Assembly: GCA_903829945.1 (NCBI GenBank)
Contig: CAIKRV010000011.1
Location: 14,255 to 78,254 of the forward strand
Direction: 5' to 3'
DNA length: 64,000 nucleotides
Source of the DNA: an uncultured bacterium
GTDB taxonomy: Bacteria > Bacteroidota > Bacteroidia > CAILMK01
Below the pieces are notes generated by a model. It was not told the origin of the DNA, ran no database searches, and saw only the letters and a program-made list of their open reading frames with translations. Below are positions 16,763 through 39,081 of the stretch, piece after piece (position 1 is the first letter of the stretch; the number at the start of each line of letters is the position of its first letter). A program made the translations under genes and the position numbers.

Positions 16763-17671
16763 GTGTTTAAATATATTAAACATAAAGATATTGACAAACC
16801 CAGGTGGAATGAAAGCTTGGAAAAATGCATCAACGCACATGTTTATGCCTATACTTGGTATTTGGATACCGTAAGTCCTAATTGGGATGCTTTGGTATGG
16901 GGAGATTATGAAATGTTATTTCCCCTAACTCACAAAACAAAATATGGAATTAGGTATTTGTGTCAACCTTTATTTATACGATATTTTGATATCTATGCCA
17001 CGGATAAATTGCCCGAACATACACATTATTTGCTCTTATTAAGAACCTTGAAAGTGCATTTTAAATTTATTGAAATCAATATTTTAAAAGAGCTTTACCA
17101 GGATCAAATACCGGATTATACTTTAAGAAAATTGCAGGCACAGCACTATAATTACTCCACCCCGGCACCCGTTATTAGCCATAGTTTAAAGCAAAATTTA
17201 AATAGGGCAAAGAAAGCAGGATTAAAGAATTTTGAATTTATTGACACTATTGCGTTTTCGTATTTTACACAAAGAGCCTTGGCCAATAAAATTCCTGATT
17301 TAAAAATTAAGGATTTTGGTTTATTAAAACATTTAATGGAAGTAAGTATTCAACATGGGCATGGAATAACCATAGGTATTAAAAATGAAAATGGAATAGT
17401 TTTGTCGGGTGAATTTATGGTTAGTGGGTTTGGGACCCAAACTTTAGTGATAGGTTTTACCCATGAGGAGGGCAAAAAAAATGGTGCCATGTCCTACTTA
17501 CGTTATGAATATATTCAAGCAATAAAAAATCAAGAAAAATATTTTGATTTTGGAGGTTCTAATTTACCCGGGGTTGCTCAATTTAATTTAACCTTCGGTA
17601 GCACGAATTATCATTATAGCGGAATAAAACATAATTCCTTACCGGCATGGGTAAGAATTTTTAAAAAATGA
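16763..17671 (+). CDS. FemAB-like/GNAT-fold acyltransferase family protein (putative).
   Basis: It is a 302-aa soluble protein packed between recQ (1-nt gap) and the GT4 gene (ATGA overlap). Its composition and size match the FemAB-like GNAT proteins of Bacteroidota glycan loci. No sharp motif is visible. Confidence 0.4.
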   Translation: MFKYIKHKDIDKPRWNESLEKCINAHVYAYTWYLDTVSPNWDALVWGDYEMLFPLTHKTKYGIRYLCQPLFIRYFDIYATDKLPEHTHYLLLLRTLKVHFKFIEINILKELYQDQIPDYTLRKLQAQHYNYSTPAPVISHSLKQNLNRAKKAGLKNFEFIDTIAFSYFTQRALANKIPDLKIKDFGLLKHLMEVSIQHGHGITIGIKNENGIVLSGEFMVSGFGTQTLVIGFTHEEGKKNGAMSYLRYEYIQAIKNQEKYFDFGGSNLPGVAQFNLTFGSTNYHYSGIKHNSLPAWVRIFKK

Positions 17672-18792
17672 AAAGAATAATTATATCCGCAACGAGTGAT
17701 TTGGTAACAGATCAAAGAGTGCACAAAGTTGCAAGCTCTTGCATAAATGCAGGATATGAAGTAATAGTAGTGGGCAGGGCAAAAAAGGATAGCTTGGCAA
17801 TTACAAATCGTAATTATAAAATTAAAAGATTTAAACTTCCTTTTGAAAAAGGCCCATTGTTTTATGCATTTTATAATTTGCGCTTATTTATATTTTTAAT
17901 ATTTAATGCTGCAGATGCATATATTGCCAATGATTTAGATACTTTAATGGGAAATTATTATGCCGCAAAAATTAAAAGGACTCCCCTATTGTATGATAAT
18001 CATGAATATTTTACTGGGGTACCGGAACTCTTAGATCGCGCTTTTACACGAAATATTTGGAAGAAAATTGAACGCCACATTTTCCCTAAGTTAAAATACG
18101 TTTATACTGTAAATAATTCAATTAAATTATTATTTGAAAATGAATATCATATTCCTGTAGCAGTAGTTCGTAATATTCCATTACGCAACGAAAGTCAAGA
18201 AATAAAGAAAAAACTTAACATTGAAATTCCCCAGGGCAATAAAGTTATTATTTACCAAGGAGCAATCAACAAAGATAGAGGAGTGGAAGAAGCAATTCAG
18301 GCTATGCAATATCTTGAAAATATTACTTTGCTTATTGTCGGAGACGGAGACGTTTTTAATGAGGTTAAAAAAATAGCAGAACAATTACATATTGAAAATA
18401 AAATTATTTTTACGGGAAAAATACCATTTCAATTATTACCCAACTACACCGCTTTAGCAGACTTAGGTTTATGTATAGAAAAGTCCACCAATATTAATTA
18501 TACTTTTAGTTTACCAAATAAGTTATTTGACTATATCCGAGCCGGAGTACCCATATTGGCAGCCGATCTGATTGAAGTAAAATCAATTATCAACCAATAC
18601 AATATTGGCAATATAATTCAAACACATGATCCCAAACATATTGCCGAGCAAATTACGATAAGCTTATTTGATGAAAATAAAATCCAATTATGGAAAAAGC
18701 AATTAAAAATTGCATCCCAAGAATTGAGTTGGGAAAATGAGGAAAAAGTATTTTTAAATATGCTTAAAGAGGCCATTCCTTCAGGAAATTAA
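17668..18792 (+). CDS. Glycosyltransferase family 4 (GT-B fold).
   Basis: The N-terminus is MKRIIISATSDLVTDQRVHKV. The C-terminal EX7E-like region is FDYIRAGVPILAADLIEVKSIINQ. The length is 374 aa. Confidence 0.72.
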   Translation: MKRIIISATSDLVTDQRVHKVASSCINAGYEVIVVGRAKKDSLAITNRNYKIKRFKLPFEKGPLFYAFYNLRLFIFLIFNAADAYIANDLDTLMGNYYAAKIKRTPLLYDNHEYFTGVPELLDRAFTRNIWKKIERHIFPKLKYVYTVNNSIKLLFENEYHIPVAVVRNIPLRNESQEIKKKLNIEIPQGNKVIIYQGAINKDRGVEEAIQAMQYLENITLLIVGDGDVFNEVKKIAEQLHIENKIIFTGKIPFQLLPNYTALADLGLCIEKSTNINYTFSLPNKLFDYIRAGVPILAADLIEVKSIINQYNIGNIIQTHDPKHIAEQITISLFDENKIQLWKKQLKIASQELSWENEEKVFLNMLKEAIPSGN

Positions 18793-18877: not shown

Positions 18878-20011
18878 ATGAAAGAACTACACCTGATCAG
18901 TTTTAATGTCCCCTACCCTGCAGATTATGGGGGAGTAATAGATGTCTTTTATAAAATTAAAGCCCTCAAAAAGGCCGGAGTAAAAGTACATTTGCATACT
19001 TTCCAATATGGCAGAGAAGAAGCTGATATATTATCAAGCCTGTGTGAAGAAGTTTATTATTACAAGCGAAAATTATATAAGGATCCATTTTTTTCTAAAT
19101 TACCTTATATAGTAGCTACACGTGCCAATGATGAATTATTATCTAATTTATTAAAGGATCGTCACCCCATTATATTTGAAGGCATTCATTGTTGTTATTT
19201 TATTGATAATCCACAACTTGAGAACAGAGTTAAGCTTGTGCGCATGCACAATATAGAGCATATTTACTATAAAAATTTAGCTAAAATAGAAAGAAACTTT
19301 TTTAAGAAGTATTTCTTTTATAAAGAATCTGAAAGGCTTAAAAAATTCCAAAAACAAATACGCTTTGCAGATTTAATAGCAGCCATTTCCCCGGATGACG
19401 AAAAAATACTGAAATTAAAATTTGAGAATGTTTTTTTCTTGCCCCCCTTTCATGCCAATGAACATATTGGTCCTGCAAAAAAAGTTGAAGAATATGCCTT
19501 ATATCACGGCAATTTAGGGGTTGGTGAAAATAATGAAGCAGCTTTATACCTTGTAAAAGAAGTATTTAACGATTTAGACTACCCATTAATTATTGCAGGA
19601 AATAATCCATCCAAGGAATTGCGGGAAGCTGTTGAACAACAGCCAAATAGTAAATTAGTAGATCATACAAGTACAGATAAAATTGATGAACTTATTTCAA
19701 AGGCAAAAATTAATATCCTACCTACCTTTCAAGGTACAGGCATGAAACTCAAGCTAATAAATGTTTTGTTTAAAGGCGGGCATTGTATTGTAAACCGAAA
19801 AATGGTACATAATACCGGTTTAGAAAGTCTTTGCATTCAAGCAAACAATGCTTATGCCATGAAACATGCAGTGGAAGCCTGTAGGAACAAGGATTTTAGT
19901 CAGGCTGAACTGGAACATCGAATAGCATATTTGAACCAGGCCTTTAATAATCAAGTTAATGCCCAGCTTTTATTAGCACAAATAGCTCAATTTGAATCCG
20001 TAAGTGTGTAA
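18878..20011 (+). CDS. Glycosyltransferase, GT-B fold (GT4-like).
   Basis: A 377-aa protein that opens MKELHLISFNVPYPADYGGVIDVFYKIKALKKAGVKVHLH, typical of a GT-B N-terminal Rossmann domain. Confidence 0.5.
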   Translation: MKELHLISFNVPYPADYGGVIDVFYKIKALKKAGVKVHLHTFQYGREEADILSSLCEEVYYYKRKLYKDPFFSKLPYIVATRANDELLSNLLKDRHPIIFEGIHCCYFIDNPQLENRVKLVRMHNIEHIYYKNLAKIERNFFKKYFFYKESERLKKFQKQIRFADLIAAISPDDEKILKLKFENVFFLPPFHANEHIGPAKKVEEYALYHGNLGVGENNEAALYLVKEVFNDLDYPLIIAGNNPSKELREAVEQQPNSKLVDHTSTDKIDELISKAKINILPTFQGTGMKLKLINVLFKGGHCIVNRKMVHNTGLESLCIQANNAYAMKHAVEACRNKDFSQAELEHRIAYLNQAFNNQVNAQLLLAQIAQFESVSV

Positions 20012-20979: not shown

Positions 20980-22932
20980 ATGAATACACGTACCTTCAAA
21001 ATGAAACCGTTATTTGCAGCAGCATTTGCGGTAATTATTGCGCTGTCAGCATGCAACAGTCCCCGCAAGCTTGCTAAAGCACTTGATACCATGAAGTTCA
21101 AAACTCAACCTGAAGTTTTGGAAGTTAATGGTGATAGTGTGGAAGTTAAAGTTACAGCCAAAATTCCACCTAAGACCTTCGGAAAGAAGGCTATCGTTAA
21201 ATTTCAACCAATCCTAGTTTATGGAGATCAACAAAAAGAGCTTGATCCTATTTACTTACAAGGAGAAAAGGTGAAAGAGAAAAAAGGAAAAGTGATTAAA
21301 TACGCTAAAGGCGGATCCATTCCTTACGATAAAAAGATTGAATATACTCCTGAGATGAAAAAATCAAGACTCAGTTTAGAGTATCAAATTAAAATTGCAT
21401 CAAAGTATGATGAATTAAATCAATGCTATAGCGGCAAAAGAGATTCTTCTACTCGTGGTACAATTACAACATCCTTAAGTGTAAAACCTTATGATGATGT
21501 ATATTTTTATACCGGTAATGAACATCCTAACTTGTATGATACCAGTGTAGGTGGTGGCAAAGGCAATGCGCAATCCATGCAAACTGCAGGCAGACCAAAT
21601 CTAGTATTTTATTATGTTATCAATGAAGGTTCATTAAGAGATTCCGCAAAAAGAGGCCCTGCCGCTCGTTTATTAGCTAAACTAGTTGGCCCTAAAGAAG
21701 TTGCTAAACCTAAGAAAGATAAAAAAGGTAAAGTAATTATTGACCAAGCTGCTGATGAAAAAGCACTTAGAGAAGAAATGGAGAAAGGCGGTAAAGTAAC
21801 CGGTGTTGTATTTAAATCTTATGCTTCCCCAGATGGTGAAGTTAGTAGAAATACCACTTTGTGTCAACAACGTGCACAATCCTCTTTCGAATTTGTAAAG
21901 AAAGAATTCAAAAGATTAGGTGTGAAAGAAGTTAATGATGCCAATTTCGTAAAACAACCTGATGCCAGTGAAGACTGGGCAGGTATGAAGAAATTAGTGG
22001 AAGCTTCCAAAATGAAAGGTAAAGCTGATGTTTTAGCAATTATCAATTCCAATCAAAGTCCTGAAGAAAAAGAAAAATCTTTACGTGCAATGACTGCAGT
22101 TTGGAATGACCTTGCTAAAAATATACTTCCTAGATTAAGAAGAACTGAAGTTTATCTTCAAGGCTTAGGTCAAGTAGTGGTAGTTAACCGTACCCGTTCT
22201 GCAGATGAAATTAAAGCTGCTCACCAATCCGGTGCTGATTCTACTTTAAGCCAAAGAGAAATGTTAATTCTTGCAGCTAATATTGCAGACATGAATGAGC
22301 GTGCAAAAATTTATCAAGCATATGCTGAAAAATATCCAAACGATTGGACCGGTCAAAATAACTATGCAGCTATTACCCTTCAACAAGGTATGATGAGTGT
22401 TAAAGACGAAACTACAGCACTTAAATCTAATGCAAAAATTGACCAAGCTTTAGGCATGTTGGATAAATTACATACTCAATATCCTAAAAATGATACTATT
22501 ACCAGCAATCTTGCCGTAGCAAAACGTTTTGCACGTAAATATAATGATGCTCAAGTTGGTTACTCTACCGCTAAAACTGATGGTATGAAGGAAGCTAATA
22601 ACTTAGGTATCTTATTTATAAAATATGGTTGGTATGAAAAAGCTACTACTAGCTTTGAATCAAACCGTTGCGATTATAACGTAGCTTTGGCATACACTTT
22701 GAAAGGAAGTTATGACGAAGCATTAAATAAACTTGAATGCATTACCGACAAAAAAGCTGATGAGTACTACTTAAAAGCAATTATCGGTGCACGTAAGAAT
22801 GATAAAACTTTAATGACAACAGCTCTTACCCGCGCAATCTCAATGGATCCAAGCTTGCGTGATAAAGCTAAAAATGATTTAGAGTTTAATAAGTTCTGGA
22901 AATCATCTGAGTTTATGAATGCTGTTAAATAA
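20980..22932 (+). CDS. Lipoprotein with an OmpA-like segment and C-terminal TPR-like repeats.
   Basis: The lipoprotein signal is AVIIALSACNSP. A degenerate OmpA-like motif follows (SYASPDGEVSRNTTLCQQRAQSSFEFV). The last roughly 250 aa are helical TPR-like. The length is 650 aa. Confidence 0.45.
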   Translation: MNTRTFKMKPLFAAAFAVIIALSACNSPRKLAKALDTMKFKTQPEVLEVNGDSVEVKVTAKIPPKTFGKKAIVKFQPILVYGDQQKELDPIYLQGEKVKEKKGKVIKYAKGGSIPYDKKIEYTPEMKKSRLSLEYQIKIASKYDELNQCYSGKRDSSTRGTITTSLSVKPYDDVYFYTGNEHPNLYDTSVGGGKGNAQSMQTAGRPNLVFYYVINEGSLRDSAKRGPAARLLAKLVGPKEVAKPKKDKKGKVIIDQAADEKALREEMEKGGKVTGVVFKSYASPDGEVSRNTTLCQQRAQSSFEFVKKEFKRLGVKEVNDANFVKQPDASEDWAGMKKLVEASKMKGKADVLAIINSNQSPEEKEKSLRAMTAVWNDLAKNILPRLRRTEVYLQGLGQVVVVNRTRSADEIKAAHQSGADSTLSQREMLILAANIADMNERAKIYQAYAEKYPNDWTGQNNYAAITLQQGMMSVKDETTALKSNAKIDQALGMLDKLHTQYPKNDTITSNLAVAKRFARKYNDAQVGYSTAKTDGMKEANNLGILFIKYGWYEKATTSFESNRCDYNVALAYTLKGSYDEALNKLECITDKKADEYYLKAIIGARKNDKTLMTTALTRAISMDPSLRDKAKNDLEFNKFWKSSEFMNAVK

Positions 22933-22964: not shown

Positions 22965-23855
22965 ATGAAGAATTTTAAGAAATTATTCCTCCTTTTCGCC
23001 ATAGGCACTTTTGCTTTGGCTTCCTGTTCAAAAACCACAGATACGACTGGTGCAAGTAATCCTAGCATTAACGTAACCCCTAGCTCTGATATAACTTTAG
23101 CGCAAGGTGCACAAGCTTCTTTTGGAATTACTGCCAATGAAAACACAAGTACTACTTCCCCGCTAACTAATCTTGAAATTAAGATTACTTATACCGGTGG
23201 CGCTAGTGTTCTTGATACTAACATTGCAATTAATAAGTTGGCTAACTACGGTTATACTTATAATTGGAACGTACCGATGTCCGCAACAAATGGAAGTACT
23301 TATACAGTTTCATTTACTGTAACTGATAACAAGTCTTATACTGCAACCACTACACGTAATATTAATGTGAAAGGTGGTTCTGTAACCAACCAAAGCGGTA
23401 CTCTTGGTGCTCAAATGAATACACTAGGAAGCTTTTATGCGAGTGCTAACGGATCCGTGTTTACGGCATCTCAAGCTAAATCTAACCAATCAGCCATTGA
23501 CTTCGTATATTATTACGATGCAACAACTAATGCTACTATTGCTGCTCCTGCTGATGCTACTGCACAAAGCACTCTTCCTTCTTATTTCAGTGGATGGAGT
23601 ACTTTCAATAACACAACCATGAAGAAAACAGCTACCAGCTCTGTTGATATCACTACACTTACTTATAGCAATATTGCTGCTGCTTACTCAAACGCAAGTG
23701 GATCTGAATCTACTAACGTTAGTAACTTAGCTGTGGGTGATGTGGTAATGTTTAAAACAGCTGCAGGTAAATATGGTGCCTTCAAGGTGAGTTCACTTAA
23801 TTCAGGTAATGTATCTACCGGCTCTATTACTATTGCTTCTGTAGTTCAACTTTAA
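22965..23855 (+). CDS. Ser/Thr-rich secreted lipoprotein, hypothetical.
   Basis: The lipobox is FALASCSKTTD. The protein is 296 aa with low-complexity S/T/N-rich beta-type sequence. A shadow ORF at 23437 lies inside it. Confidence 0.5.
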   Translation: MKNFKKLFLLFAIGTFALASCSKTTDTTGASNPSINVTPSSDITLAQGAQASFGITANENTSTTSPLTNLEIKITYTGGASVLDTNIAINKLANYGYTYNWNVPMSATNGSTYTVSFTVTDNKSYTATTTRNINVKGGSVTNQSGTLGAQMNTLGSFYASANGSVFTASQAKSNQSAIDFVYYYDATTNATIAAPADATAQSTLPSYFSGWSTFNNTTMKKTATSSVDITTLTYSNIAAAYSNASGSESTNVSNLAVGDVVMFKTAAGKYGAFKVSSLNSGNVSTGSITIASVVQL

Positions 23856-23875: not shown

Positions 23876-23907
23876 AAAAAGCCCGCCCTCAAAAGCGGGC
23901 TTTTTTT
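23876..23907 (+). terminator. Rho-independent terminator.
   Basis: The hairpin is aaaaagcccgc-cctcaaaa-gcgggc followed by ttttttt, a GC-rich stem with a T7 tail. Confidence 0.85.
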
Positions 23908-24011: not shown

Positions 24012-26060
24012 ATGCAATTCTTATATCCTCAATTTTTATATGCACTAATTACTCTGGCTATACCGGTAATTATTCATTTATTTAATTTTAGACGATACAA
24101 GAAAATTTTATTTACCAATGTCAGATTTTTGACGGAAATCCAGCAAGAATCAAAATCGAGAAATAAGCTACGACATCTCCTACTCTTATTTATACGTTTA
24201 ATATTACTGGCATCTATAGTTATTGCCTTTGCGCAGCCTTATTTCCCAAATAAAAAAAATCTAGTCAAGCCCGGCAAAAATTATATTTGTATTTATCTGG
24301 ATAATTCATTTAGCATGACCAATATTGCAGCTCAAGGCGACTTATTGCAAATTGCTAAAAAGAAAGCTGAAGAAGCAGCAAAAGCCTTCCGAGAAAGCGA
24401 TGCTTTCCAATTATTAACCAATGATTTTGAAAGTAAACACAAACGTTGGTACAACAGGGCCGAATTCATTCAGTTATTAAATGAAGTCAACCCCAGCCCT
24501 ATCAGCAAAAAAATATCAGAAATAAATACCCGTTTTTCGGAGTCATTCAAGGAAGTTGATGCTACTAATAAATACGTTTATTTCTTTACCGATTTTCAAG
24601 AGAAAATGGCAGATTTTTCTGCACTTAAAAATGATAGTAATACCAACTATACCGCAGTTCCGTTAAAAGCCAATCAGCAAAGCAATATTTATATTGATTC
24701 CGCATGGTTTGAAAACAGCATTTGGCAAGTAAACCAAGCAAATACTGTAAAAGCAATTATTGTTAATTCAAGCGACAAGAACATAGAAGAAGGTACTCTT
24801 ACCCTTAGCATCAATGGGAAGCAAAAGGCCTTGTCAAATTTTAATTGTAATGCACATGGACGAGTTGAGGTGCGTGTTAATTTTACTATTAATGAGGAAG
24901 GTCCCAATAAAGCACAGCTACAAATAAATGATTACCCAATAACTTTTGATGATACTTGGTATTTTAGCTTCCCGGTAGCTAAGTACATCCCGGTTTTAGC
25001 CATAAATGGAGATAAAAATACACCTAATGTAACTAAAGCATTTGAAGCTGAAAAAGCATTTAAGTATGAACAATACGCCCAAGGCAATATTGATTATTCA
25101 AGTTTAAATAATTATAATTTCATCATATTAAACGAAATTTCCTCATTGAGTTCCGGGTTGGCAGCTTCTGCAAAATCTTTTATGGAACAAGGGGGTAATT
25201 TGATCCTCATTCCTAGCGGTAACAATGCTGATGAAAATACTTATAATCAGTTATTAAATAATAGCTTGGCAGGAAGAATGGAAGGCGTTTCCTTAACTGG
25301 TCAAACGATTGAAAACATAGATCTGAAAAATCCGTTTTTTGGAAATATTTTCGAGGAAACACCAAAGAACATTAATTTGCCGGAGGCAAAAAAATACTTT
25401 AAAATAGTACTAAATACTCAAAGCAGAGCGGTATCGCTTTTAAGATTTAATAATGCTGATCCATTTTTAACTATGATTCCGGTGGGCAAAGGCTTTCTGT
25501 TTGTATGTGCCGTTCCACTTGAGGCAGAATGGAGTAATTTTGCCAATCATGCTCTATTCCTTCCTTTAATGTATAAAATGGCCTTACATCATAGTGACCA
25601 AGAAAAAACCTCTTATACCCTTGGGATTGATAACTATATCAGTATTCGGACCTTATCAACTGACGATAAAGAATACATTTATAAGCTAAAAAAAGATAAA
25701 TTTGAAGAGCCTATGTCACAACGCAATATTGATGGCAATATGAATTTGTACATAGAAGGGAGAATAAAAGAAGCCGGATTTTATGATTTGGTTGGCTCAG
25801 GAACGCAAAAAGGAGAAAATAAACAGGCTTTTGCCTTTAATTATAATCGTGATGAAAGCAAAATGAAATTTCTATCCGATAAACAAATATTAGAGGATGG
25901 CAGTAAAATTGGATTAAAGCTTTTAGATATAAGTAAAGCATCGCTCACCACAGAAATAAAAGATTTAAAGCAAGGATCAGGATTATGGAAATGGTTTGTC
26001 CTGCTGGCCTTAATTTGTATTTTAACTGAAACAATATTAATTCGACTTTATAAACAATGA
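24012..26060 (+). CDS. BatA_N (N-terminal double-transmembrane) domain membrane protein.
   Basis: The N-terminus (LITLAIPVIIHLFNFRRYKKILFTNVRFL...LLLLFIRLILLASIVIAFAQP) matches the aerotolerance BatA N-terminal double-TM domain. A C-terminal TM helix follows (WKWFVLLALICILTETILI). The length is 682 aa. Confidence 0.55.
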   Translation: MQFLYPQFLYALITLAIPVIIHLFNFRRYKKILFTNVRFLTEIQQESKSRNKLRHLLLLFIRLILLASIVIAFAQPYFPNKKNLVKPGKNYICIYLDNSFSMTNIAAQGDLLQIAKKKAEEAAKAFRESDAFQLLTNDFESKHKRWYNRAEFIQLLNEVNPSPISKKISEINTRFSESFKEVDATNKYVYFFTDFQEKMADFSALKNDSNTNYTAVPLKANQQSNIYIDSAWFENSIWQVNQANTVKAIIVNSSDKNIEEGTLTLSINGKQKALSNFNCNAHGRVEVRVNFTINEEGPNKAQLQINDYPITFDDTWYFSFPVAKYIPVLAINGDKNTPNVTKAFEAEKAFKYEQYAQGNIDYSSLNNYNFIILNEISSLSSGLAASAKSFMEQGGNLILIPSGNNADENTYNQLLNNSLAGRMEGVSLTGQTIENIDLKNPFFGNIFEETPKNINLPEAKKYFKIVLNTQSRAVSLLRFNNADPFLTMIPVGKGFLFVCAVPLEAEWSNFANHALFLPLMYKMALHHSDQEKTSYTLGIDNYISIRTLSTDDKEYIYKLKKDKFEEPMSQRNIDGNMNLYIEGRIKEAGFYDLVGSGTQKGENKQAFAFNYNRDESKMKFLSDKQILEDGSKIGLKLLDISKASLTTEIKDLKQGSGLWKWFVLLALICILTETILIRLYKQ

Positions 26061-27310
26061 ATATATTAATAAAATCCGTTACAGTTATTGACCCAAACTC
26101 TGCATACCATGGGAAGGAAATTGACTTAAGTATTGAAGACGGAATTATTCAAATCTCCTCTAAAAAAGCTTCAGTATTTAATGAAACTATCAACGGAAAA
26201 GGTCTCCTTATTTCACCGGGATGGTTTGATATGCGGGTTAATTTTTATGATCCGGGCTTTGAATATAGAGAAGGTATTAAAAACGGAGCCCTTACCAGCG
26301 CAGCAGGAGGCTTTACAGGAGTTGCCTTACTTCCGGAAACAAACCCGGGCATTACCGGAAAAAGCCAAGTAGAATATATTATTAATCAAGGTCGGGACAA
26401 TATAGTTTCCATTTATCCAATGGGCTCCATTTTACAAGAAAGTGGAGAAACCATCAGTGAAATGTACGATTTGCTTCATGCAGGTGCTATTGCATTCAGT
26501 TCGGGTTATAAAGGCATCGCCGATGAAGGCTTACTGCTTCGCGCCATGCAATACAGTAGTACCATGGATGTGCCTCTAGTACTAAGTACTATTAATAAAA
26601 ATTTGTACGGAAAAGGACAAATGAATGAAGGCTTGATTAATGTACAAATAGGCATGAAGGGCATTCCTGATGTTGCCGATGAAGTAGAAATAAATAAAAT
26701 CATCAGCTTATGCCGATACACCAATGCCAAGGTTCATATCAGCGGAGTATCCGGAATAGTGGCCTTAAATCTTATTTTAAAAGCGCAAGAAGAAGGCTTA
26801 AAAATTACTTGTGACACTACGGCACATCATTTAAGTTTTGATGAAAATGATTTGCTAAATTTCAATACTCAACTCAAACTTCGCCCTCCTTTGCGAACAC
26901 AACAAGATAAAATATTTCTTCGAAATGGAGTTAAAAATGGTACCATTCAAGCAGTAGTATCAGACCATAATCCTTTGGAAGAAGATAAGAAAAAATGCGA
27001 ATTTGAAATTGCAGGATTTGGGGCATCAGGCACTCAAACAGTATATTCTCAATTGGTAAAATGTTTAGGCGACCAGGAAAAAATCGTATCCGTTTTGGCT
27101 ATACAACCCAGAGAAATTTTAGGCTTAAAAATTCCTGTTATTAATGACGGGGAAATTGCAAATATTACTTTATTTGATCCTGAGAAAAAATGGATACTTA
27201 ATGAAGAAAGTAATCAGTCCAAATCCAGAAATCATCCATTATGGCAACAGGAATTAAGCGGTAAAGCAATTGCAATTGCCAATAATTTACAATTTAGAAA
27301 GCTCTCATAA
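26057..27310 (+). CDS. Dihydroorotase-like amidohydrolase with a degenerate metal site, possibly non-catalytic.
   Basis: The DHOase fold is recognisable (GFTGVALLPETNPGITGKSQVEY, AKVHISGVS, TCDTTAHHLSF, SDHNPLEEDKK). The canonical HxH (DxHVHLREPG) is replaced by GWFDMRVNFYDPG. The start overlaps the upstream stop (ATGA). Confidence 0.65.
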   Translation: MNILIKSVTVIDPNSAYHGKEIDLSIEDGIIQISSKKASVFNETINGKGLLISPGWFDMRVNFYDPGFEYREGIKNGALTSAAGGFTGVALLPETNPGITGKSQVEYIINQGRDNIVSIYPMGSILQESGETISEMYDLLHAGAIAFSSGYKGIADEGLLLRAMQYSSTMDVPLVLSTINKNLYGKGQMNEGLINVQIGMKGIPDVADEVEINKIISLCRYTNAKVHISGVSGIVALNLILKAQEEGLKITCDTTAHHLSFDENDLLNFNTQLKLRPPLRTQQDKIFLRNGVKNGTIQAVVSDHNPLEEDKKKCEFEIAGFGASGTQTVYSQLVKCLGDQEKIVSVLAIQPREILGLKIPVINDGEIANITLFDPEKKWILNEESNQSKSRNHPLWQQELSGKAIAIANNLQFRKLS

Positions 27311-27313
27311 AAG

Positions 27314-27847
27314 ATGCGGTCCATAAAATTACCATTAGCAATTAAAATAGGATTATTAGCAGGATTTTTTTCCTCTATTCCCAATTATATTGCCTTTATA
27401 TTTAATGAACATTTATTTGTAGAGCCAAATTTAGCCGGCATCAATTTAATTGTCCAGGTATTTACACCTATCATCTCAGGAATTATAGCCGCATTAATAA
27501 TAAAAAGACAAAATGAAGGACGCATCAGTTTCAGTAAAGTGATGATTACTTTACTTACCACCGTAAGTATAGCAGTAGCCGTAAATGTATTTTTATTTCT
27601 AATACTTTTCATTCTCAGTTCCGGATTTATGCAGCGATATGCATCTATGCAAAATGACATCTTTTTGCAAAGAATGAAAGAAGGCCTTATGACCGCAAAA
27701 AATTACTCCGATTATACCATCACGGTACATAAAAATTCATTTTTAAGTGTATTAGTTACTCAAACAATTACCTTTAACTTGCTTTTAATTTTTGTCAGTG
27801 CCTTGGTATCATTAATCATAGCAACCATCATACGAAAAGAAAAATAA
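27314..27847 (+). CDS. DUF4199-like small polytopic membrane protein.
   Basis: A 177-aa protein with four predicted TM segments, 4 nt after the DHOase-like gene and 1 nt before the GT2 gene. Confidence 0.45.
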   Translation: MRSIKLPLAIKIGLLAGFFSSIPNYIAFIFNEHLFVEPNLAGINLIVQVFTPIISGIIAALIIKRQNEGRISFSKVMITLLTTVSIAVAVNVFLFLILFILSSGFMQRYASMQNDIFLQRMKEGLMTAKNYSDYTITVHKNSFLSVLVTQTITFNLLLIFVSALVSLIIATIIRKEK

Positions 27848-27848
27848 A

Positions 27849-28796
27849 ATGGATATTTCATTAGTAATTCCCTTGTATAACGAAGAAGAATCTATTCCGG
27901 AGTTATCAGAATGGATTGACAGAGTAGCCAAAGAAAATGGCTTTAGCTACGAAACTATATTCTTAGATGATGGCAGTAAGGATTCCTCCTGGGAAGTGAT
28001 AAAAAAATTAGCTTCAAATAATCCGAATGTAAAAGGAATTAGTTTTAGAAGAAATTACGGTAAGTCCGCTGCATTAAATGAAGGCTTTAGAGCCACGCAA
28101 GGCGATGTAGTAATCACTATGGATGCGGATTTACAAGACAGTCCCGATGAAATACCGGAATTATTTCAATTAATTAAAAGTGGGCAATACGATTTGGTTT
28201 CCGGTTGGAAGCAAAAAAGATATGATCCAATTTCAAAAACTTTACCGACAAAATTATTTAATTGGGCTACTCGAAAAATGAGCGGCATTTCTTTAAATGA
28301 TTTTAATTGCGGATTGAAAGCCTATAGGAAGGATGTAGTAAAAAGTATTGAAGTTTACGGTGAAATGCATCGTTATATCCCTGTAATTGCAAAGTGGGCA
28401 GGATTTACAAAAATTGGAGAAAAAGCAGTACAGCATAGAGCAAGGAAATATGGTGTTACTAAATTTGGATTAGAACGTTTTGTCAATGGTTTTTTAGACT
28501 TATTAACCATATTTTTTGTTGGAAAATTTGGCAGAAGACCGATGCATTTTTTTGGTTCATTAGGAATGTTAATGTCCATTTTTGGATTATTTTGTACCCT
28601 GTGGATTGGCGGTGCTAAATTATACCACGTTTCATTTAATATTAAGGCGGAGAAAATTACATCAGACCCTATTTTTTATTTAGCGCTGACCTGCATGATT
28701 ATAGGCACACAATTATTTTTAGCAGGATTTATTGGTGAACTCATTTCCAGAAATGGAAACGAAAGAAATTTCTACCATGTTAGAGAAAAAATTTAA
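27849..28796 (+). CDS. Glycosyltransferase family 2, polyprenyl-phosphate (dolichol-phosphate-mannose synthase-like) type with C-terminal TM helices.
   Basis: The N-terminal GT-A region (MDISLVIPLYNEEESIPE...IFLDDGSKDSS...ITMDADLQDSPDEI) carries DxD. Two C-terminal TM helices follow. The length is 315 aa. Confidence 0.8.
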   Translation: MDISLVIPLYNEEESIPELSEWIDRVAKENGFSYETIFLDDGSKDSSWEVIKKLASNNPNVKGISFRRNYGKSAALNEGFRATQGDVVITMDADLQDSPDEIPELFQLIKSGQYDLVSGWKQKRYDPISKTLPTKLFNWATRKMSGISLNDFNCGLKAYRKDVVKSIEVYGEMHRYIPVIAKWAGFTKIGEKAVQHRARKYGVTKFGLERFVNGFLDLLTIFFVGKFGRRPMHFFGSLGMLMSIFGLFCTLWIGGAKLYHVSFNIKAEKITSDPIFYLALTCMIIGTQLFLAGFIGELISRNGNERNFYHVREKI

Positions 28797-30435: not shown

Positions 30436-31956
30436 ATGTACACGCTTAGGGAAATATTTTCTTTTATTGAGAACAAACCTCTTCTCTTTACTCAATATCT
30501 ATTTTGGATGTTTTTCGGGGTTTTGTTATTGATTTATACCCTAATTTTCAGAAATGACACCTTTAGAAGAAGATTACTTTTAATTTTTAGTATCTTTTTT
30601 TACTATAAATCCGGTGGATATTTCTTTTTACTCTTGCTACTATCTACCGTTATGGATTTTGGTTTGGGTAAATTAATTCATAGTGGAAAAACACAATGGC
30701 ATCGTAAGTTTTATGTAACCTGTAGTGTAATTTTAAACTTAGGACTATTATCCTATTTTAAGTATTATCAATTTTACTTAAATCTAATAAACGATATATT
30801 AGGGACTAATTATAAAGCCTTTAATTATTTAGCCAATTGGACGAATGGTATTTCAGGCAGTCATTTTGATATATGGACAGTAATGTTGCCGGTAGGAATT
30901 TCCTTCTATACTTTTCAATCCTTAAGCTATACCATAGATATTTACCGCAAAAAAATAGAGCCGGTCAGTAATATTTTAGATTTTGCTTTTTTTGTCACCT
31001 ATTTCCCTCAATTAGTGGCAGGACCCATTGTTCGAGCTGCAGAGTTTTTGCCTCAAATACACAAAAAATATGCACTAAGCTCTGAAGATTTTGGTAAGGC
31101 TGCTTATCTAATCATGGCAGGATTAATTAAGAAAATGGTTATTTCAGACTATATTTCCTTAAATTTTGTAGATAGAGTCTTTGAAAACCCCATATTATAT
31201 AGCGGTTTTGAAAATTTAATGGCAGTATACGGTTATACCATCCAAATTTATTGCGACTTTTCAGGATATACAGATATAGCTATCGGTTTGTCATTATTAT
31301 TAGGCTACCATTTACCGGTAAATTTTAATTCCCCATACCAATCCGTAAATATTACAGAATTCTGGAGACGTTGGCATATATCTCTATCTACTTGGCTTAA
31401 AGACTACTTATACATTCCATTAGGAGGAAATAGAAAGGGGAAAATCAGAACTTATATTAACTTATTTCTTACCATGTTGCTTGGTGGTTTATGGCATGGG
31501 GCACATATTAGATTTTTAATATGGGGAGGATTGCAAGGATTAGCATTAGCGCTTCATAAATTCTGGATGAAAATATTTCCAAGTGGCAATCAAAGGAAAG
31601 ATTCAAAATTCATATTGATGTGCAGCGGCATTTTAACCTTCAATTTTGTCGCTTTTTGCTGGATATTTTTCAGAGCGCCCAATTTGTCAATTGTAGGTCA
31701 AATACTCAGTCAAATTGGAAATAATTTTCATTTTAACCTCATTGGCAAAGTGGTTACTTCCTATAGTAATGTCTTTATTCTGATGCTTGTAGCCTATTTT
31801 ATTCACCTTTGGCCCCAATCATGGAAGTATGCCATACGTTTACGATTTACGGCCTGGCCAATTTATATCAAAGCAATAATAATCAGCATATTAGTAATTT
31901 TGATTTATCAGGCTACCTCCTCAGCTATACAGCCCTTTATTTATTTCCAATTTTAA
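30436..31956 (+). CDS. MBOAT family membrane-bound O-acyltransferase, paralog 2.
   Basis: It carries YFPQLVAGPIVRAAEF, EFWRRWHISLSTWLKDYLYIPLGGN and the C-terminal ...FIYFQF, the same architecture as 6539..7954. No adjacent AlgX-like partner. Confidence 0.85.
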   Translation: MYTLREIFSFIENKPLLFTQYLFWMFFGVLLLIYTLIFRNDTFRRRLLLIFSIFFYYKSGGYFFLLLLLSTVMDFGLGKLIHSGKTQWHRKFYVTCSVILNLGLLSYFKYYQFYLNLINDILGTNYKAFNYLANWTNGISGSHFDIWTVMLPVGISFYTFQSLSYTIDIYRKKIEPVSNILDFAFFVTYFPQLVAGPIVRAAEFLPQIHKKYALSSEDFGKAAYLIMAGLIKKMVISDYISLNFVDRVFENPILYSGFENLMAVYGYTIQIYCDFSGYTDIAIGLSLLLGYHLPVNFNSPYQSVNITEFWRRWHISLSTWLKDYLYIPLGGNRKGKIRTYINLFLTMLLGGLWHGAHIRFLIWGGLQGLALALHKFWMKIFPSGNQRKDSKFILMCSGILTFNFVAFCWIFFRAPNLSIVGQILSQIGNNFHFNLIGKVVTSYSNVFILMLVAYFIHLWPQSWKYAIRLRFTAWPIYIKAIIISILVILIYQATSSAIQPFIYFQF

Positions 31957-36372: not shown

Positions 36373-39081
36373 ATGCGTATAGGGATATTTTTTGGAGGTA
36401 AATCAAGAGAACGTGAAATTTCATTTGCAGGAGGCAGAACCGTATATGATTTATTGGATAAATCAGTATTCACTCCTATTCCCATTTTTGTAGATAGTTT
36501 AGGAAATTTTATTTTATTGGATTGGGAATATTTATATAAAGGAAGTATTCGTGATTTCTATCCACCCGTAAAGCATTTAGAAAAACAAGACGAAAACTTT
36601 CAGATCTATATTGAATCACTCTCCGACCTAAACATATCAAAGCAAGAAGAAATAATAGCAGAAGTTGGCAAAAAAATCAGTCCGGAAAACTTTAAGGATT
36701 ATTTTGATTTTGCTTTTTTGGCCTTACATGGGCCATATGGGGAAGATGGCAGTATTCAAGGCATCCTTGAATATTATAACATGCCGTACTCAGGATCGGG
36801 TGTCCTTCCTTCTGCTGTTGGCATCAATAAAGTTGTTCAAAAGCATTTCTTAAAAGAAATGGGAATAAAAGCAGCTGAATCCACCAGCGTGAAGCGAGAG
36901 CATTGGATGAGCGGCTCTGAAAATAAATTAAATTTTTTCAATTCCTTAAAATCACAATTTTTACTTCCTGTGGTTATAAAATCAAGTTCACAAGGTTCCT
37001 CCATCGGTGTGTCAATTTTGAAGGCATGGGATTTTGAGCAATTTGAAAATTTAATAAACCGCAGCTTCTTTCAGCAAACGGTAAGTAAAAGCGAATGGAT
37101 AGAGAAAAGTCCAGAACAAAAGAGAATATTTATTCAACAATTATGTGATATATATGAAGGCATAGGCGTTCCCCTTCAATGTATAGGTTTGGAAAATCAA
37201 ACTCCGATCATAAAACTTCCAGCCGTAGTATATCAAACCTTAGAAAAACATTTTGAGGACCATTCCAACGCTTTAACCCTAATAAGTCTTCAGACAGAAA
37301 GCGAAGTACTGGTTGAAGAATTTATAAGAGGAAAAGAATTTTCTTGTATCGTGGTGGAAGGAGAAAATGATGAACCTATAGCATTACCTCCTACAGGGAT
37401 TATTAAAAACGATGAAATATTTAATTATCGCGCCAAATACTTACCGGGCATTTCAAGAAAAGTAACCCCTATTGATTTGCCCGAACCGCAAATTGAACAA
37501 ATAATAAATGCATGTGAGCAATTATATCAGGCATTAAAATTTGATGTTTACGCAAGAATTGATGGTATGATTACTGAGGAAGGAGTTATTTATTTGAATG
37601 ATCCTAATACCACTTCAGGGATGCTTCCTTCGAGTTTCTTTTTTCATCAAGCTGCCGAAATTGGATTAAGTCCCTCACAATTCTTAAGTTTTATAATTTA
37701 TAAATCCGTAGCAAAAAGAATTGAACATACGCACCATGCATTCCCCTTGCTTGACTTACAAAAGAAGCTCCATGAAAAATTATTATTGAACACTGAATCT
37801 AATACTCATAAATTGAGAGTTGGGGTGGTGTTAGGGGGAATATCTACAGAAAGACATATTTCAGTAGAAAGCGGCAGAAATGTATTTGAAAAATTATCCT
37901 CCTCCGGAAAATATCAAGTATCTCCGATATTTTTGACACAGGAAGGAGAAGAAATTAGTCTTTTTTCACTGCCCATGAATTTATTACTTAAAGATAATGC
38001 TGACGATATTAGCGAAAAAGTAAAAAATTATCATAGTGCCCCTATTATAGACAAAATAATTACAAAGGCTGCTTTTATTAGTCATCATTTTACCTCGGGT
38101 AATTATGAATTTAAACCTAAATCCATTCCCATTGCCGAATTAAAAAACAACTTTGATTTTATATTTATAGGATTGCATGGAAGACCGGGAGAAGATGGCA
38201 CTTTACAAAAAAGTTTAGAACAATTAAATATTCCATATAATGGATCAGGTATTGACTCCTCCGGCATTACGATTAACAAATATCTGACCAATGAAATTTT
38301 ACATAGTCATGGTTTTTTAATTCCAAAACATTTTCTAATAAATAAGAGCGAATGGCTAGCAGATGCTTCCGCTTTATATACAAACATTGAAAGTCATCTT
38401 CCCTATCCTATTATTGCAAAACCTGCAGATGATGGCTGTTCTTCGGCAGTAAAGAAAATTAATTCCCGAGCGGAATTAGATGTTTTTACCAAAGCAATGT
38501 TTAGAAATGAAATTGAATTAAATAATACTTTACGAGATAGTTTGTCCTTATTAGGCAATGAAGAATTTCCTAAAAAAGATTTTTTTGTTGTGGAAGAATT
38601 GGTGGCCCCTGAAGGAGCAAAGCATTTTATTGAAATAACAGGAGGAATGCTTACAAGTTATGACGAAGAAGGTGCCATTAAATATGAATTATTTGAACCT
38701 TCTGAAGCCTTAGCTTCCAAGGGGATATTATCCTTAGAAGAAAAGTTTTTAGCAGGAGAAGGACAAAACATTACTCCGGCTCGTTTTTCCGGGCAAGCAG
38801 AAGAAAATAAAAGTATTTCTAAAATAGTAAGAGAAACTTTAGGGGCTGCAGCTAAGGTATTGAATATTGAAGGTTATTGTCGAATTGACGCCTTTGTGCG
38901 TATTTTTTCGAAAGATAAAGTTGAAGTAATTTTTATTGAAGTAAACTCACTACCGGGATTAACACCCGCAACATGTATTTTCCACCAAGCTGCATTGAAT
39001 GGTTATAAACCATTCCAATTCCTTGATCATATCATACAATATGGAATCGAAAAAGAAAACAGACGGAGCCCAAGAAGCTGA
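36373..39081 (+). CDS. Tandem (internally duplicated) D-alanine--D-alanine ligase family ATP-grasp protein, 902 aa.
   Basis: Module 1 carries MRIGIFFGGKSREREISFAGGR, LHGPYGEDGSIQGILE, VVIKSSSQGSSIGVS and YARIDGMITEEGVIYLNDPNTTSGM. Module 2 carries LRVGVVLGGISTERHISVESGR, LHGRPGEDGTLQKSLE, IIAKPADDGCSSAV and CRIDAFVRIFSKDKVEVIFIEVNSLPGL. Both have long insertions. Confidence 0.6.
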   Translation: MRIGIFFGGKSREREISFAGGRTVYDLLDKSVFTPIPIFVDSLGNFILLDWEYLYKGSIRDFYPPVKHLEKQDENFQIYIESLSDLNISKQEEIIAEVGKKISPENFKDYFDFAFLALHGPYGEDGSIQGILEYYNMPYSGSGVLPSAVGINKVVQKHFLKEMGIKAAESTSVKREHWMSGSENKLNFFNSLKSQFLLPVVIKSSSQGSSIGVSILKAWDFEQFENLINRSFFQQTVSKSEWIEKSPEQKRIFIQQLCDIYEGIGVPLQCIGLENQTPIIKLPAVVYQTLEKHFEDHSNALTLISLQTESEVLVEEFIRGKEFSCIVVEGENDEPIALPPTGIIKNDEIFNYRAKYLPGISRKVTPIDLPEPQIEQIINACEQLYQALKFDVYARIDGMITEEGVIYLNDPNTTSGMLPSSFFFHQAAEIGLSPSQFLSFIIYKSVAKRIEHTHHAFPLLDLQKKLHEKLLLNTESNTHKLRVGVVLGGISTERHISVESGRNVFEKLSSSGKYQVSPIFLTQEGEEISLFSLPMNLLLKDNADDISEKVKNYHSAPIIDKIITKAAFISHHFTSGNYEFKPKSIPIAELKNNFDFIFIGLHGRPGEDGTLQKSLEQLNIPYNGSGIDSSGITINKYLTNEILHSHGFLIPKHFLINKSEWLADASALYTNIESHLPYPIIAKPADDGCSSAVKKINSRAELDVFTKAMFRNEIELNNTLRDSLSLLGNEEFPKKDFFVVEELVAPEGAKHFIEITGGMLTSYDEEGAIKYELFEPSEALASKGILSLEEKFLAGEGQNITPARFSGQAEENKSISKIVRETLGAAAKVLNIEGYCRIDAFVRIFSKDKVEVIFIEVNSLPGLTPATCIFHQAALNGYKPFQFLDHIIQYGIEKENRRSPRS

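What the first reader, a model, noticed from the sequence alone, without database searches (positions are those of the whole stretch)
24012..28796. Tightly overlapped four-gene operon: BatA_N membrane protein, HxH-less dihydroorotase-like protein, DUF4199 membrane protein and a GT2 polyprenyl-phosphate glycosyltransferase
Junctions seen in sequence: the 24012..26060 stop overlaps the 26057 start (ATGA), 27310 to 27314 is a 3-nt gap, and 27847 to 27849 is a 1-nt gap. The amidohydrolase has a clear DHOase fold (VHISGVS, AHHLSF, SDHNPL) but has replaced the di-metal HxH motif with MRVNF. That predicts loss of catalysis, as in the non-catalytic PyrC' proteins that scaffold ATCase. Here it is instead embedded between membrane proteins and a dolichol-P-sugar synthase-like GT2. 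The embedding suggests a recruited, non-enzymatic role in an envelope glycosylation module rather than pyrimidine synthesis.
Basis: partly seen in the sequence, partly recalled or inferred. Interest (0 to 1): 0.5.

Follow-up and report, generated by a model that had tools for sequence, protein, structure and literature searches.

The report
Dead dihydroorotase in envelope-gene operon
A Bacteroidota operon contains a well-conserved copy of the pyrimidine enzyme dihydroorotase that has lost its catalytic metal site, and across the phylum this gene sits next to membrane-protein and lipid-linked-sugar genes rather than pyrimidine genes, which suggests (but does not prove) that a dead enzyme has been re-used as a structural or regulatory subunit of an envelope module.

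Summary
Four same-strand genes (24012-28796) are packed with a 4-nt overlap, a 3-nt gap and a 1-nt gap. A terminator-like hairpin lies upstream and a convergent gene bounds the 3' end. They encode a BatA_N three-TM protein, a type I DHOase-fold protein, a four-TM DUF4199 protein and a full-length ArnC/GtrB-type polyprenyl-phosphate GT2.

The DHOase-like protein has lost more than the HxH motif: five of six metal ligands and two substrate-binding residues are gone, while the fold is intact (TM 0.91 to Aquifex DHOase). The loss is clade-wide: 98 of 150 representatives at 50% identity keep none of the four His ligands. The gene is still under strong purifying selection (dN/dS about 0.06), so it is a pseudoenzyme, not a pseudogene.

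Synteny is conserved across at least four Bacteroidota classes. BatA_N is directly upstream in 55/66 loci, DUF4199 downstream in 48/71 and GT2 in 31/57. No ATCase homologue lies nearby in any locus.

The envelope-module role rests on gene neighbourhood alone. The classical alternative, a PyrC'-type scaffold for ATCase, could not be excluded, because the genomes' pyrB, pyrI and catalytic pyrC could not be examined. I found no literature on this clade or operon.

The parts
23881..23907 (+). Terminator-like hairpin (AGCCCGC-loop-GCGGGC followed by TTTTTTT) that closes the upstream gene and marks the 5' boundary of the operon; a 105-nt AT-rich leader follows.
   Evidence: Read directly. The consensus scan did not list it on the + strand, so this is my reading of the sequence.
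24012..26060 (+). 682-aa membrane protein. It has a BatA_N/TIGR02226 double-TM hairpin (about residues 3-27 and 52-79, with a K/R-rich loop between them), a roughly 580-aa multi-domain region inferred to be extracytoplasmic (alpha/beta domain, CARDB-like beta-sandwich, GH42-middle/GATase1-like alpha/beta domain, beta domain), and a C-terminal TM helix (657-681).
   Evidence: Pfam and NCBIfam; hydropathy; AF2 model with pLDDT 81; fold search gives only partial matches to accessory domains; no sequence match in the PDB. Topology is inferred from the positive-inside rule.
26057..27310 (+). 417-aa cytoplasmic type I DHOase-fold pseudoenzyme with no TM segment. Five of six metal ligands are replaced. 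Its start codon overlaps the stop codon of the upstream gene (ATGA).
27314..27847 (+). 177-aa DUF4199 protein with four predicted TM helices and a roughly 30-aa loop between TM3 and TM4. The family diverges quickly (13-19% identity between classes).
   Evidence: Pfam; hydropathy; iterative HMM finds it downstream of the DHOase-like gene in 48/71 loci; alignment A3.
27849..28796 (+). 315-aa GT2 of the ArnC/GtrB/DPMS polyprenyl-phosphate glycosyltransferase type. It has a GT-A domain with a DAD motif (MDADLQ) and C-terminal TM helices (about 233-256 and 274-300). It is very strongly conserved (62-70% identity across classes; dN/dS about 0.013).

Best explanation
The four genes form one transcription unit that is an ancient Bacteroidota module. 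Gene 2 is a pseudoenzyme. It keeps the complete type I dihydroorotase fold but has no metal site and no conserved catalytic constellation, so it cannot make dihydroorotate (shown at sequence level). It is nevertheless kept under strong purifying selection, so it has another function (shown). I infer that this function is structural or regulatory and is exerted together with its operon partners. The soluble protein would be made in a fixed ratio with the BatA_N membrane protein through translational coupling, would dock on the cytoplasmic face of the membrane, and would act as a non-catalytic subunit of a module. That module also contains the DUF4199 four-TM protein and a GtrB/ArnC-type enzyme that loads a sugar onto undecaprenyl phosphate for use outside the cytoplasmic membrane. 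DUF4199, a small four-TM protein next to a GtrB-like GT2, is a candidate flippase or partner by analogy with GtrA and ArnE/F (speculative). The sugar, the final acceptor and the actual contacts are unknown.
For: Loss of catalysis: alignment to Aquifex DHOase. Clade-wide loss in 121 close homologues and in 150 representatives at 50% identity, where 98 keep none of the four His ligands and the positions hold many different residues. Fold intact: AF2 pLDDT 86.5, TM 0.91 to 3d6n. Functional constraint: dN/dS about 0.05-0.07, like its neighbour. Association: BatA_N directly upstream in 55/66 loci; the two genes overlap in 21/66 and lie 120 nt or less apart in 62/66; DUF4199 downstream in 48/71 and the orthologous GT2 in 31/57; 47 of 49 fully assessable loci touch at least one partner. 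The same order occurs in Cytophagia. It also occurs in very divergent or partly degenerate members (P0414, P0408, and P0451 in a 67% GC genome). The one ligand-intact relative examined (P0412) has no such neighbours. No ATCase homologue lies in the window, the 80 loci or six further loci, and the 64-kb window has no pyr genes. In Chitinophagaceae the block continues into GT4, GHMP-kinase, SIS and HAD sugar-activation genes. The GT2 is homologous to ArnC and GtrB over its full length.
Against: Everything beyond 'pseudoenzyme under selection' is gene-neighbourhood inference, with no physical or genetic evidence. The bulk of the BatA_N protein is predicted to face the periplasm, which leaves only a roughly 30-aa loop and a short tail for a cytoplasmic partner. 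The GT2 and DUF4199 are absent from the neighbourhood in Flavobacteriales-type loci (pattern BC--, 10 loci), and BatA_N is absent in Chitinophagaceae-type loci (-CDG, 7 loci), so no single partner is universal. A Bacteroidales MAG has the BatA_N gene without the DHOase-like gene, and P. gingivalis has the GT2-DUF4199 pair (PMC10434189; its other neighbours were not seen), so the partners can exist without it. The only known reason for bacteria to keep a dead type I DHOase is ATCase assembly. The comparison of ligand-intact with degenerate contexts rests on a single intact example.
Confidence: 0.45

Rival explanations
1. It is a Bacteroidota PyrC' (pseudo-DHOase). Dimers of the dead type I DHOase would bridge PyrB trimers into a class A2-like dodecameric ATCase, as in Pseudomonas, after a separate catalytic DHOase (the Bacteroidota type represented by P. 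gingivalis 2gwn) took over catalysis. The operon position would then be historical and unrelated to function.
For: The protein passes TIGR00857 'pyrC_multi', the complex-type DHOase family that includes the inactive Pseudomonas subunits. The model's best structural match is Aquifex DHOase in its ATCase complex. The precedent is well documented: pDHO is required for Pseudomonas ATCase assembly and activity (PMC7053772). A catalytic-looking relative sits close to the clade (P0412), which fits a dead-after-replacement history. No Bacteroidales member was seen among the named clades. From memory, Bacteroidales are the Bacteroidota that carry pyrI, which would give a complementary distribution.
Against: It is never next to pyrB in 86 loci, whereas pyrB and pyrC' are adjacent and overlapping in Pseudomonas (general knowledge). 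Instead it is translationally coupled to a membrane protein across classes. It reaches none of the NCBIfam DHOase/PyrC' equivalog cutoffs. The apparent absence from Bacteroidales comes from truncated lists, and the pyrI distribution is from memory, not tested.
Confidence: 0.3
2. It is still an enzyme with a different chemistry: a mononuclear or metal-independent amidohydrolase acting on the product of the GT2 (for example de-N-acylation of a polyprenyl-phosphate amino sugar, analogous to ArnD after ArnC or NaxD in Francisella). That would make the operon an Arn-like lipid-linked sugar modification pathway.
For: The best NCBIfam and PDB matches of the GT2 are to ArnC. A sub-clade keeps His180, His232 and Asp305 while lacking HxH (P0408, P0354, P0414, P0425, P0364), a pattern like mononuclear amidohydrolases such as E. 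coli NagA (from memory). Those members are in the same operon context.
Against: In the window's protein and in most of the clade the beta-site ligands are also gone. The former ligand positions hold many different residues (Arg/Gly/Asn/Gln/Phe...), and Asp305 is Asp in only 67/150 representatives. No conserved catalytic constellation is left; the invariant residues are the legacy structural ones shared with real DHOases. No GT-C transferase that would complete such a pathway was found in the 64-kb window.
Confidence: 0.07
3. The conserved adjacency reflects only co-expression in a housekeeping operon. The pseudoenzyme would have some unrelated role (for example a binding protein for a pyrimidine intermediate, or a chaperone-like role) with neither ATCase nor the membrane proteins as partner.
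For: No single neighbour is universal. The substrate-contact Asn of the TNP motif is retained in the closer family set. There is no direct evidence for any partner.
Against: Stop/start overlap and adjacency persist over very deep divergence, down to 29-33% identity and from 34% to 67% GC, which is unusual for functionally unrelated genes. The Arg65 and His309 substrate-binding positions are not conserved, which argues against conserved binding of carbamoyl-aspartate or dihydroorotate.
Confidence: 0.15

Closest known systems
PyrC' / pseudo-DHOase (pDHO) subunit of class A2 aspartate transcarbamoylases (Pseudomonas aeruginosa, P. putida, P. fluorescens)
   Same: A protein of about 420-45 kDa homologous to type I DHOase that lacks the zinc ligands, is non-catalytic, and is maintained by selection. 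A separate catalytic DHOase is expected elsewhere in the genome.
   Different: The Pseudomonas gene is adjacent to pyrB and its product is needed for ATCase assembly (PMC7053772). Here the gene is never near pyrB in 86 loci and is coupled to a membrane protein and a lipid-linked-sugar GT2 instead. It reaches no NCBIfam equivalog cutoff, and no ATCase interaction has been tested.
Aquifex aeolicus DHOase in the DHOase-ATCase complex (PDB 3d6n/4bjh)
   Same: The closest solved relative by sequence (E 4e-74, 33% identity) and fold (TM 0.91). It has the same two-domain architecture and shares conserved C-terminal and loop motifs.
   Different: The Aquifex enzyme is catalytic and has His61, His63, Asp153, His180, His232 and Asp305. 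The window protein keeps only Asp305.
CRMP/DPYSL proteins of animals and the pDHO domain of fungal URA2
   Same: Members of the same cyclic-amidohydrolase fold that lost the metal site and were kept as non-catalytic adaptor or scaffold proteins. CRMPs appear among the fold matches.
   Different: They arose independently in eukaryotes. CRMPs bind the cytoskeleton, and the URA2 pDHO is a linker domain within a fusion protein. The similarity is by analogy, not orthology.
GtrA/GtrB/GtrC and ArnC/ArnD/ArnE-F/ArnT lipid-linked sugar modification systems
   Same: The GT2 is homologous over its full length to ArnC (E 2e-41) and GtrB (E 1e-24), and it sits next to a small four-TM protein, as GtrB sits next to GtrA.
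   Different: DUF4199 has no demonstrated homology to GtrA or ArnE/F. No GT-C transferase is in the operon or the window. The BatA_N protein and the pseudo-DHOase have no counterpart in those systems.
Bat (Bacteroides aerotolerance) operon proteins BatA/BatB
   Same: They share the N-terminal double-TM BatA_N domain.
   Different: No vWA Pfam domain was detected here, no MoxR/DUF58/TPR Bat neighbours are present, and the domain content after the TM hairpin differs.

Membership tests
Catalytic type I dihydroorotase (EC 3.5.2.3) | Amidohydrolase TIM-barrel plus adjacent beta domain, with full-length homology to type I DHOases | tested here: met
   phmmer E 4e-74 to Aquifex DHOase. AF2 model has TM 0.91 to 3d6n. 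TIGR00857 scores 283 bits against a cutoff of 279.
Catalytic type I dihydroorotase (EC 3.5.2.3) | Alpha-site ligands: the HxH motif (His61, His63) and Asp305 | tested here: not met
   His61->Arg and His63->Asn; Asp305 is kept in the query. In 150 representatives, HxH is intact in only 2.
Catalytic type I dihydroorotase (EC 3.5.2.3) | Bridging carboxylate (Asp153 or carbamylated Lys) and beta-site ligands His180 and His232 | tested here: not met
   FTDDG->FSSGY, His180->Ser and His232->Gly in the query. Across the clade, position 180 is mostly Phe/Arg/Leu/Tyr and position 232 is mostly Gly/Thr/Asn.
Catalytic type I dihydroorotase (EC 3.5.2.3) | Substrate-binding residues Arg65, Asn95 and His309 (Aquifex numbering; assignment from memory of type I DHOase structures) | tested here: not met
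   Arg65->Tyr and His309->Leu; the Asn of the TNP motif is kept in the query.
PyrC'/pDHO non-catalytic subunit of class A2 ATCase | DHOase homologue lacking zinc ligands but under selection | tested here: met
PyrC'/pDHO non-catalytic subunit of class A2 ATCase | Genetic linkage to pyrB (adjacent or overlapping in Pseudomonas) | tested here: not met
   No PyrB-like ORF in the window, within 7 kb either side in 80 loci, or in 6 further loci.
PyrC'/pDHO non-catalytic subunit of class A2 ATCase | Physical association with PyrB and requirement for ATCase activity | not testable with these tools
PyrC'/pDHO non-catalytic subunit of class A2 ATCase | A separate catalytic DHOase in the same genome, and absence of pyrI | not testable with these tools
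Polyprenyl-phosphate glycosyltransferase GT2 (ArnC/GtrB/DPMS type) | GT-A domain with a DXD motif, plus C-terminal TM helices, with full-length homology to ArnC/GtrB | tested here: met
   PF00535 E 3e-33. ArnC 9bhc E 2e-41 over residues 3-305; GtrB 5ekp E 2e-24; MDADLQ aligned to LDADLQ. TM segments at 233-256 and 274-300.
Polyprenyl-phosphate glycosyltransferase GT2 (ArnC/GtrB/DPMS type) | Assignment to a specific equivalog (which sugar is transferred) | tested here: not met
   ArnC model 171 bits against a cutoff of 529; PgfS 143 against 500. The sugar specificity is therefore unknown.
DUF4199 | Pfam PF13858 above gathering threshold; small multi-TM protein | tested here: met
   39.7 bits against 32.3. 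Four hydrophobic segments.
BatA_N / TIGR02226 double-TM anchored proteins | N-terminal double-TM domain in a 600-1000 aa protein | tested here: met
   PF07584 70.9 bits; TIGR02226 66 bits.
Bat aerotolerance operon (BatA/BatB proper) | vWA domain and MoxR/DUF58/TPR operon partners | tested here: not met
   No vWA Pfam hit at E<=0.01. The neighbours are a DHOase-like gene, DUF4199 and GT2.
Gtr/Arn-type three-part lipid-linked glycosylation system | GT2 synthase, small flippase and GT-C transferase encoded together | tested here: inconclusive
   The GT2 is present, and DUF4199 is a four-TM protein of unknown relation to GtrA or ArnE/F. No GT-C family hit was found among the window's ORFs.

The most novel reading that the evidence does not exclude
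A phylum-wide dead dihydroorotase has been exapted as the cytoplasmic subunit of a membrane complex (BatA_N protein, DUF4199 and an undecaprenyl-phosphate sugar synthase). It would be a bacterial counterpart of CRMP-type amidohydrolase pseudoenzymes and might couple nucleotide or UDP-sugar status to envelope glycan synthesis, with no role in ATCase assembly.
Probability: 0.3. Interest if true: 0.75.

Novelty: new variant of a known kind. Interest (0 to 1): 0.5.

Why it matters
Databases annotate these genes as plain 'dihydroorotase'. That is almost certainly wrong for catalysis and will mislead metabolic reconstructions of Bacteroidota, for example by counting a false second pyrC.

If the protein works with its operon partners, it would be the first bacterial pseudo-DHOase with a role outside ATCase. 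It would also give a functional handle on three widespread but uncharacterised Bacteroidota families: the roughly 680-aa BatA_N proteins, DUF4199, and a GT2 that is 62-70% identical across classes.

If it is instead an ATCase scaffold, it would show that class A2-type ATCases exist in Bacteroidota and arose independently of those in Pseudomonas. Simple experiments can distinguish the two outcomes.

Tried and rejected
1. P. gingivalis gtfF (PGN_1668). I considered it as the characterised orthologue of the GT2. I rejected it because its neighbours are purL and an smf-like gene, not DUF4199, and the PG0311/PG0312 pair was not mapped to it.

2. Literature searches. Searches for a Bacteroidota pseudo-DHOase, DUF4199, BatA_N/TIGR02226, and ATCase class in Bacteroidetes returned nothing relevant. 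The two Aquifex complex papers with interface residues are not held, so the ATCase-interface conservation test could not be done.

3. Reaching Bacteroidales. A DUF4199 profile search returned only Pedobacter-like members. The supplement of PMC10434189 held no gene table. One Bacteroidales MAG contig showed BatA_N followed by an isochorismatase-family gene. That is a single case on a 6.5-kb contig.

4. Fold search of the BatA_N model. It gave only low-TM partial matches to CARDB and GH42/GH3 accessory domains, so no function could be assigned.

5. Recent pseudogene. I rejected this reading: the reading frame is intact, the clade has more than 150 clusters at 50% identity, and dN/dS is about 0.06.

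6. Misalignment hiding the His ligands. I rejected this too: HMMER, MAFFT and structural superposition all place the same residues at the ligand positions.

7. The sigma-70 promoter scan was uninformative, with 28 sites found against 28.9 expected.

Full report
**Observation**

The junctions are as described: an ATGA stop/start overlap at 26057-26060, a 3-nt gap at 27311-27313 and a 1-nt gap at 27848. A GC-rich hairpin followed by a T-run (about 23881-23907) separates the block from the upstream gene. The last gene overlaps a convergent globin-like gene. The block is therefore a discrete four-gene unit.

Pfam and NCBIfam confirm all four assignments:
- BatA_N/TIGR02226 double-TM domain on a 682-aa protein.
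- A DHOase homologue that only just passes TIGR00857 (283 against 279 bits) and reaches no equivalog cutoff.
- DUF4199.
- A family 2 glycosyltransferase.

The window is from an uncultured Bacteroidota genome recovered from environmental metagenomes. T9SS cargo genes in the window agree with that origin.

**The DHOase-like protein is a pseudoenzyme**

Residue-by-residue alignment with Aquifex aeolicus DHOase (E 4e-74) shows these changes:
- His61 to Arg.
- His63 to Asn.
- The Asp153 segment FTDDG reads FSSGY.
- His180/Cys181 are Ser/Thr.
- His232 is Gly.
- His309 is Leu.
- Only Asp305 remains.

The fold is fully retained. The AF2 model has pLDDT 86.5 and pTM 0.89, and its best match is 3d6n at TM 0.91.

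The loss is a property of the clade and not of this one gene:
- In 121 close homologues the His63 position is Asn in 110, and the His232 position is Thr, Cys, Asn or Gly.
- In the exhaustive search, the 150 best representatives at 50% identity all score above 466 bits. Of these, 98 keep none of the four His ligands, 40 keep one, and only one keeps all four.
- The former ligand positions hold many unrelated residues, which indicates relaxed constraint in the old active site.

The gene as a whole evolves under strong purifying selection. dN/dS is about 0.05-0.07 in Pedobacter and Mucilaginibacter, similar to its upstream neighbour. dS is near saturation, so the ratio is approximate. Together these features are the signature of a pseudoenzyme and not of a decaying gene.

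A minority sub-clade keeps His180, His232 and Asp305 but not HxH. This is either an intermediate state or possibly a mononuclear enzyme. The window's protein does not belong to that group.

**The neighbours**

- GT2: it is homologous over its whole length to ArnC (E 2e-41) and GtrB (E 1e-24). It has the DAD metal motif and C-terminal TM helices. That makes it a polyprenyl-phosphate sugar synthase of unknown sugar specificity. It is remarkably conserved, at 62-70% identity across classes with dN/dS about 0.013.
- DUF4199: it has four TM helices.
- BatA_N protein: it has a TM hairpin with a K/R-rich connecting loop, a region of about 580 residues, and a final TM helix. The 580-residue region is modelled as an alpha/beta domain, a CARDB-like sandwich, a GH42-middle-like domain and a beta domain. 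From the positive-inside rule I infer that the large part is periplasmic. No catalytic fold was recognised.

**Synteny**

At least 568 GTDB species genomes encode a relative, and the best 80 loci were analysed. Counting only loci with enough flanking sequence:
- BatA_N is directly upstream on the same strand in 55/66.
- DUF4199 is downstream in 48/71.
- The orthologous GT2 is downstream in 31/57.
- 47 of 49 fully assessable loci touch at least one partner.
- The pattern counts are BCDG 20, BC-- 10, BCD- 10, -CDG 7 and -C-- 2, where B is BatA_N, C the DHOase-like gene, D DUF4199 and G the GT2.

The BatA_N and DHOase-like genes overlap in 21/66 loci and lie 120 nt or less apart in 62/66.

The same order is found in other lineages:
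- Cytophagia, in Reichenbachiella and a Cytophagales MAG.
- Partly degenerate members (P0414 and P0408).
- P0451, a degenerate member from a 67% GC genome that shares only about 33% identity with the window protein.

The single ligand-intact relative examined (P0412) has none of these neighbours.

In Sphingobacteriia an extra 223-aa gene with no Pfam match sits between the DHOase-like gene and DUF4199, and a second, unrelated membrane GT2 follows. In Chitinophagaceae the block runs on into GT4, GHMP-kinase, SIS and HAD genes. No ATCase-like ORF occurs in the window or in any of the 86 loci, and the window holds no pyr genes.

**Interpretation**

Two things are shown: the protein cannot be a metal-dependent DHOase, and it is functional. 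What it does is inferred.

The deep, translationally coupled linkage to the BatA_N membrane protein, and frequently to DUF4199 and the lipid-linked-sugar GT2, favours a non-catalytic role in that module (confidence about 0.45).

The classical alternative is real (about 0.3). In Pseudomonas a dead type I DHOase is retained because ATCase cannot assemble without it (PMC7053772). This clade descends from the same complex-type DHOases. I could not see pyrB, pyrI or a catalytic pyrC in these genomes. The named clade members are all non-Bacteroidales. If pyrI is confined to Bacteroidales, as I recall but did not test, that would give a complementary distribution favouring the scaffold model.

A residual enzymatic role, such as an ArnD-like de-N-acylase, is unlikely for this protein (about 0.07), because no conserved catalytic constellation remains.

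**Comparison with known systems and novelty**

The closest known entities are:
- PyrC'/pDHO: the same kind of dead enzyme, in a different genetic context, with its partner untested here.
- Aquifex DHOase: the closest relative, but catalytic.
- CRMPs and the fungal URA2 pDHO domain: analogous exaptations.
- The Gtr and Arn systems, for the GT2 part.

I found no paper describing this clade, the operon, DUF4199 function or the ~680-aa BatA_N proteins. Databases call the gene 'dihydroorotase'. I rate the finding a new variant of a known kind with moderate interest. It has a clear annotation consequence, and the open question can be settled by a phylogenomic profile and simple genetics.

Noticed in passing
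window 36373-39081 (+): A 902-aa ORF with two D-Ala-D-Ala ligase N-terminal domains and several C-terminal/ATP-grasp matches. It appears to be a tandem fusion of two Ddl-like units.
   Followed up: no
window 6539-7954 (+) and 30436-31956 (+): Two MBOAT-family membrane O-acyltransferase paralogues, 38% identical over about 360 aa. One lies 1.6 kb downstream of the operon.
   Followed up: no
window 17668-18792 (+), 18878-20011 (+) and 47163-47726 (+): Two GT4-type glycosyltransferases upstream of the operon and a SIS (GmhA-like) gene further downstream. These are the same families that directly follow the GT2 in Chitinophagaceae loci (C7, C11). This suggests a dispersed version of the same envelope-glycan gene set.
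   Followed up: partly
window 20980-22932 (+) and 22965-23855 (+): Two genes with no Pfam match just upstream of the operon: a 650-aa and a 296-aa putative lipoprotein with N-terminal signal/lipobox-like sequences. The second is very Ser/Thr/Asn-rich. They are not conserved next to the DHOase-like gene in other loci.
   Followed up: partly
loci L008, L017 and about 40 other Sphingobacteriia loci; also L087 3023-3619: A conserved gene of about 200-223 aa with no Pfam match (cluster C4) is inserted between the DHOase-like gene and DUF4199. It is under purifying selection (dN/dS about 0.07-0.09) and is absent from the window.
   Followed up: partly
representatives P0408, P0354, P0414, P0425, P0364 (for example L087 1777-3042): A sub-clade of the DHOase-like family keeps His180, His232 and Asp305 but has lost HxH. 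It may be a mononuclear-type site or an evolutionary intermediate. It sits in the same BatA_N/DUF4199/GT2 context.
   Followed up: partly
Sphingobacteriia loci, for example L007 10287-12797: Downstream of the two GT2 genes lie a conserved gene with no Pfam match (C6) and a GH3-family (auxin-amido-synthetase-like adenylating enzyme) gene (C5), in 21-27 loci.
   Followed up: no
window 9412-13467 (-), 54148-56262 (-), 58171-63912 (-): Three large T9SS cargo proteins (CHU_C or Por_Secre_tail C-terminal domains with PKD, Ig-like, lamin-tail and beta-propeller repeats). They confirm a Bacteroidota origin.
   Followed up: no
L088 1-4449: A type I-C-like CRISPR-Cas gene set (Csd1, Cas7, Cas4, Cas1, Cas2) lies immediately upstream of the BatA_N / DHOase-like pair in the 67% GC genome.
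   Followed up: no
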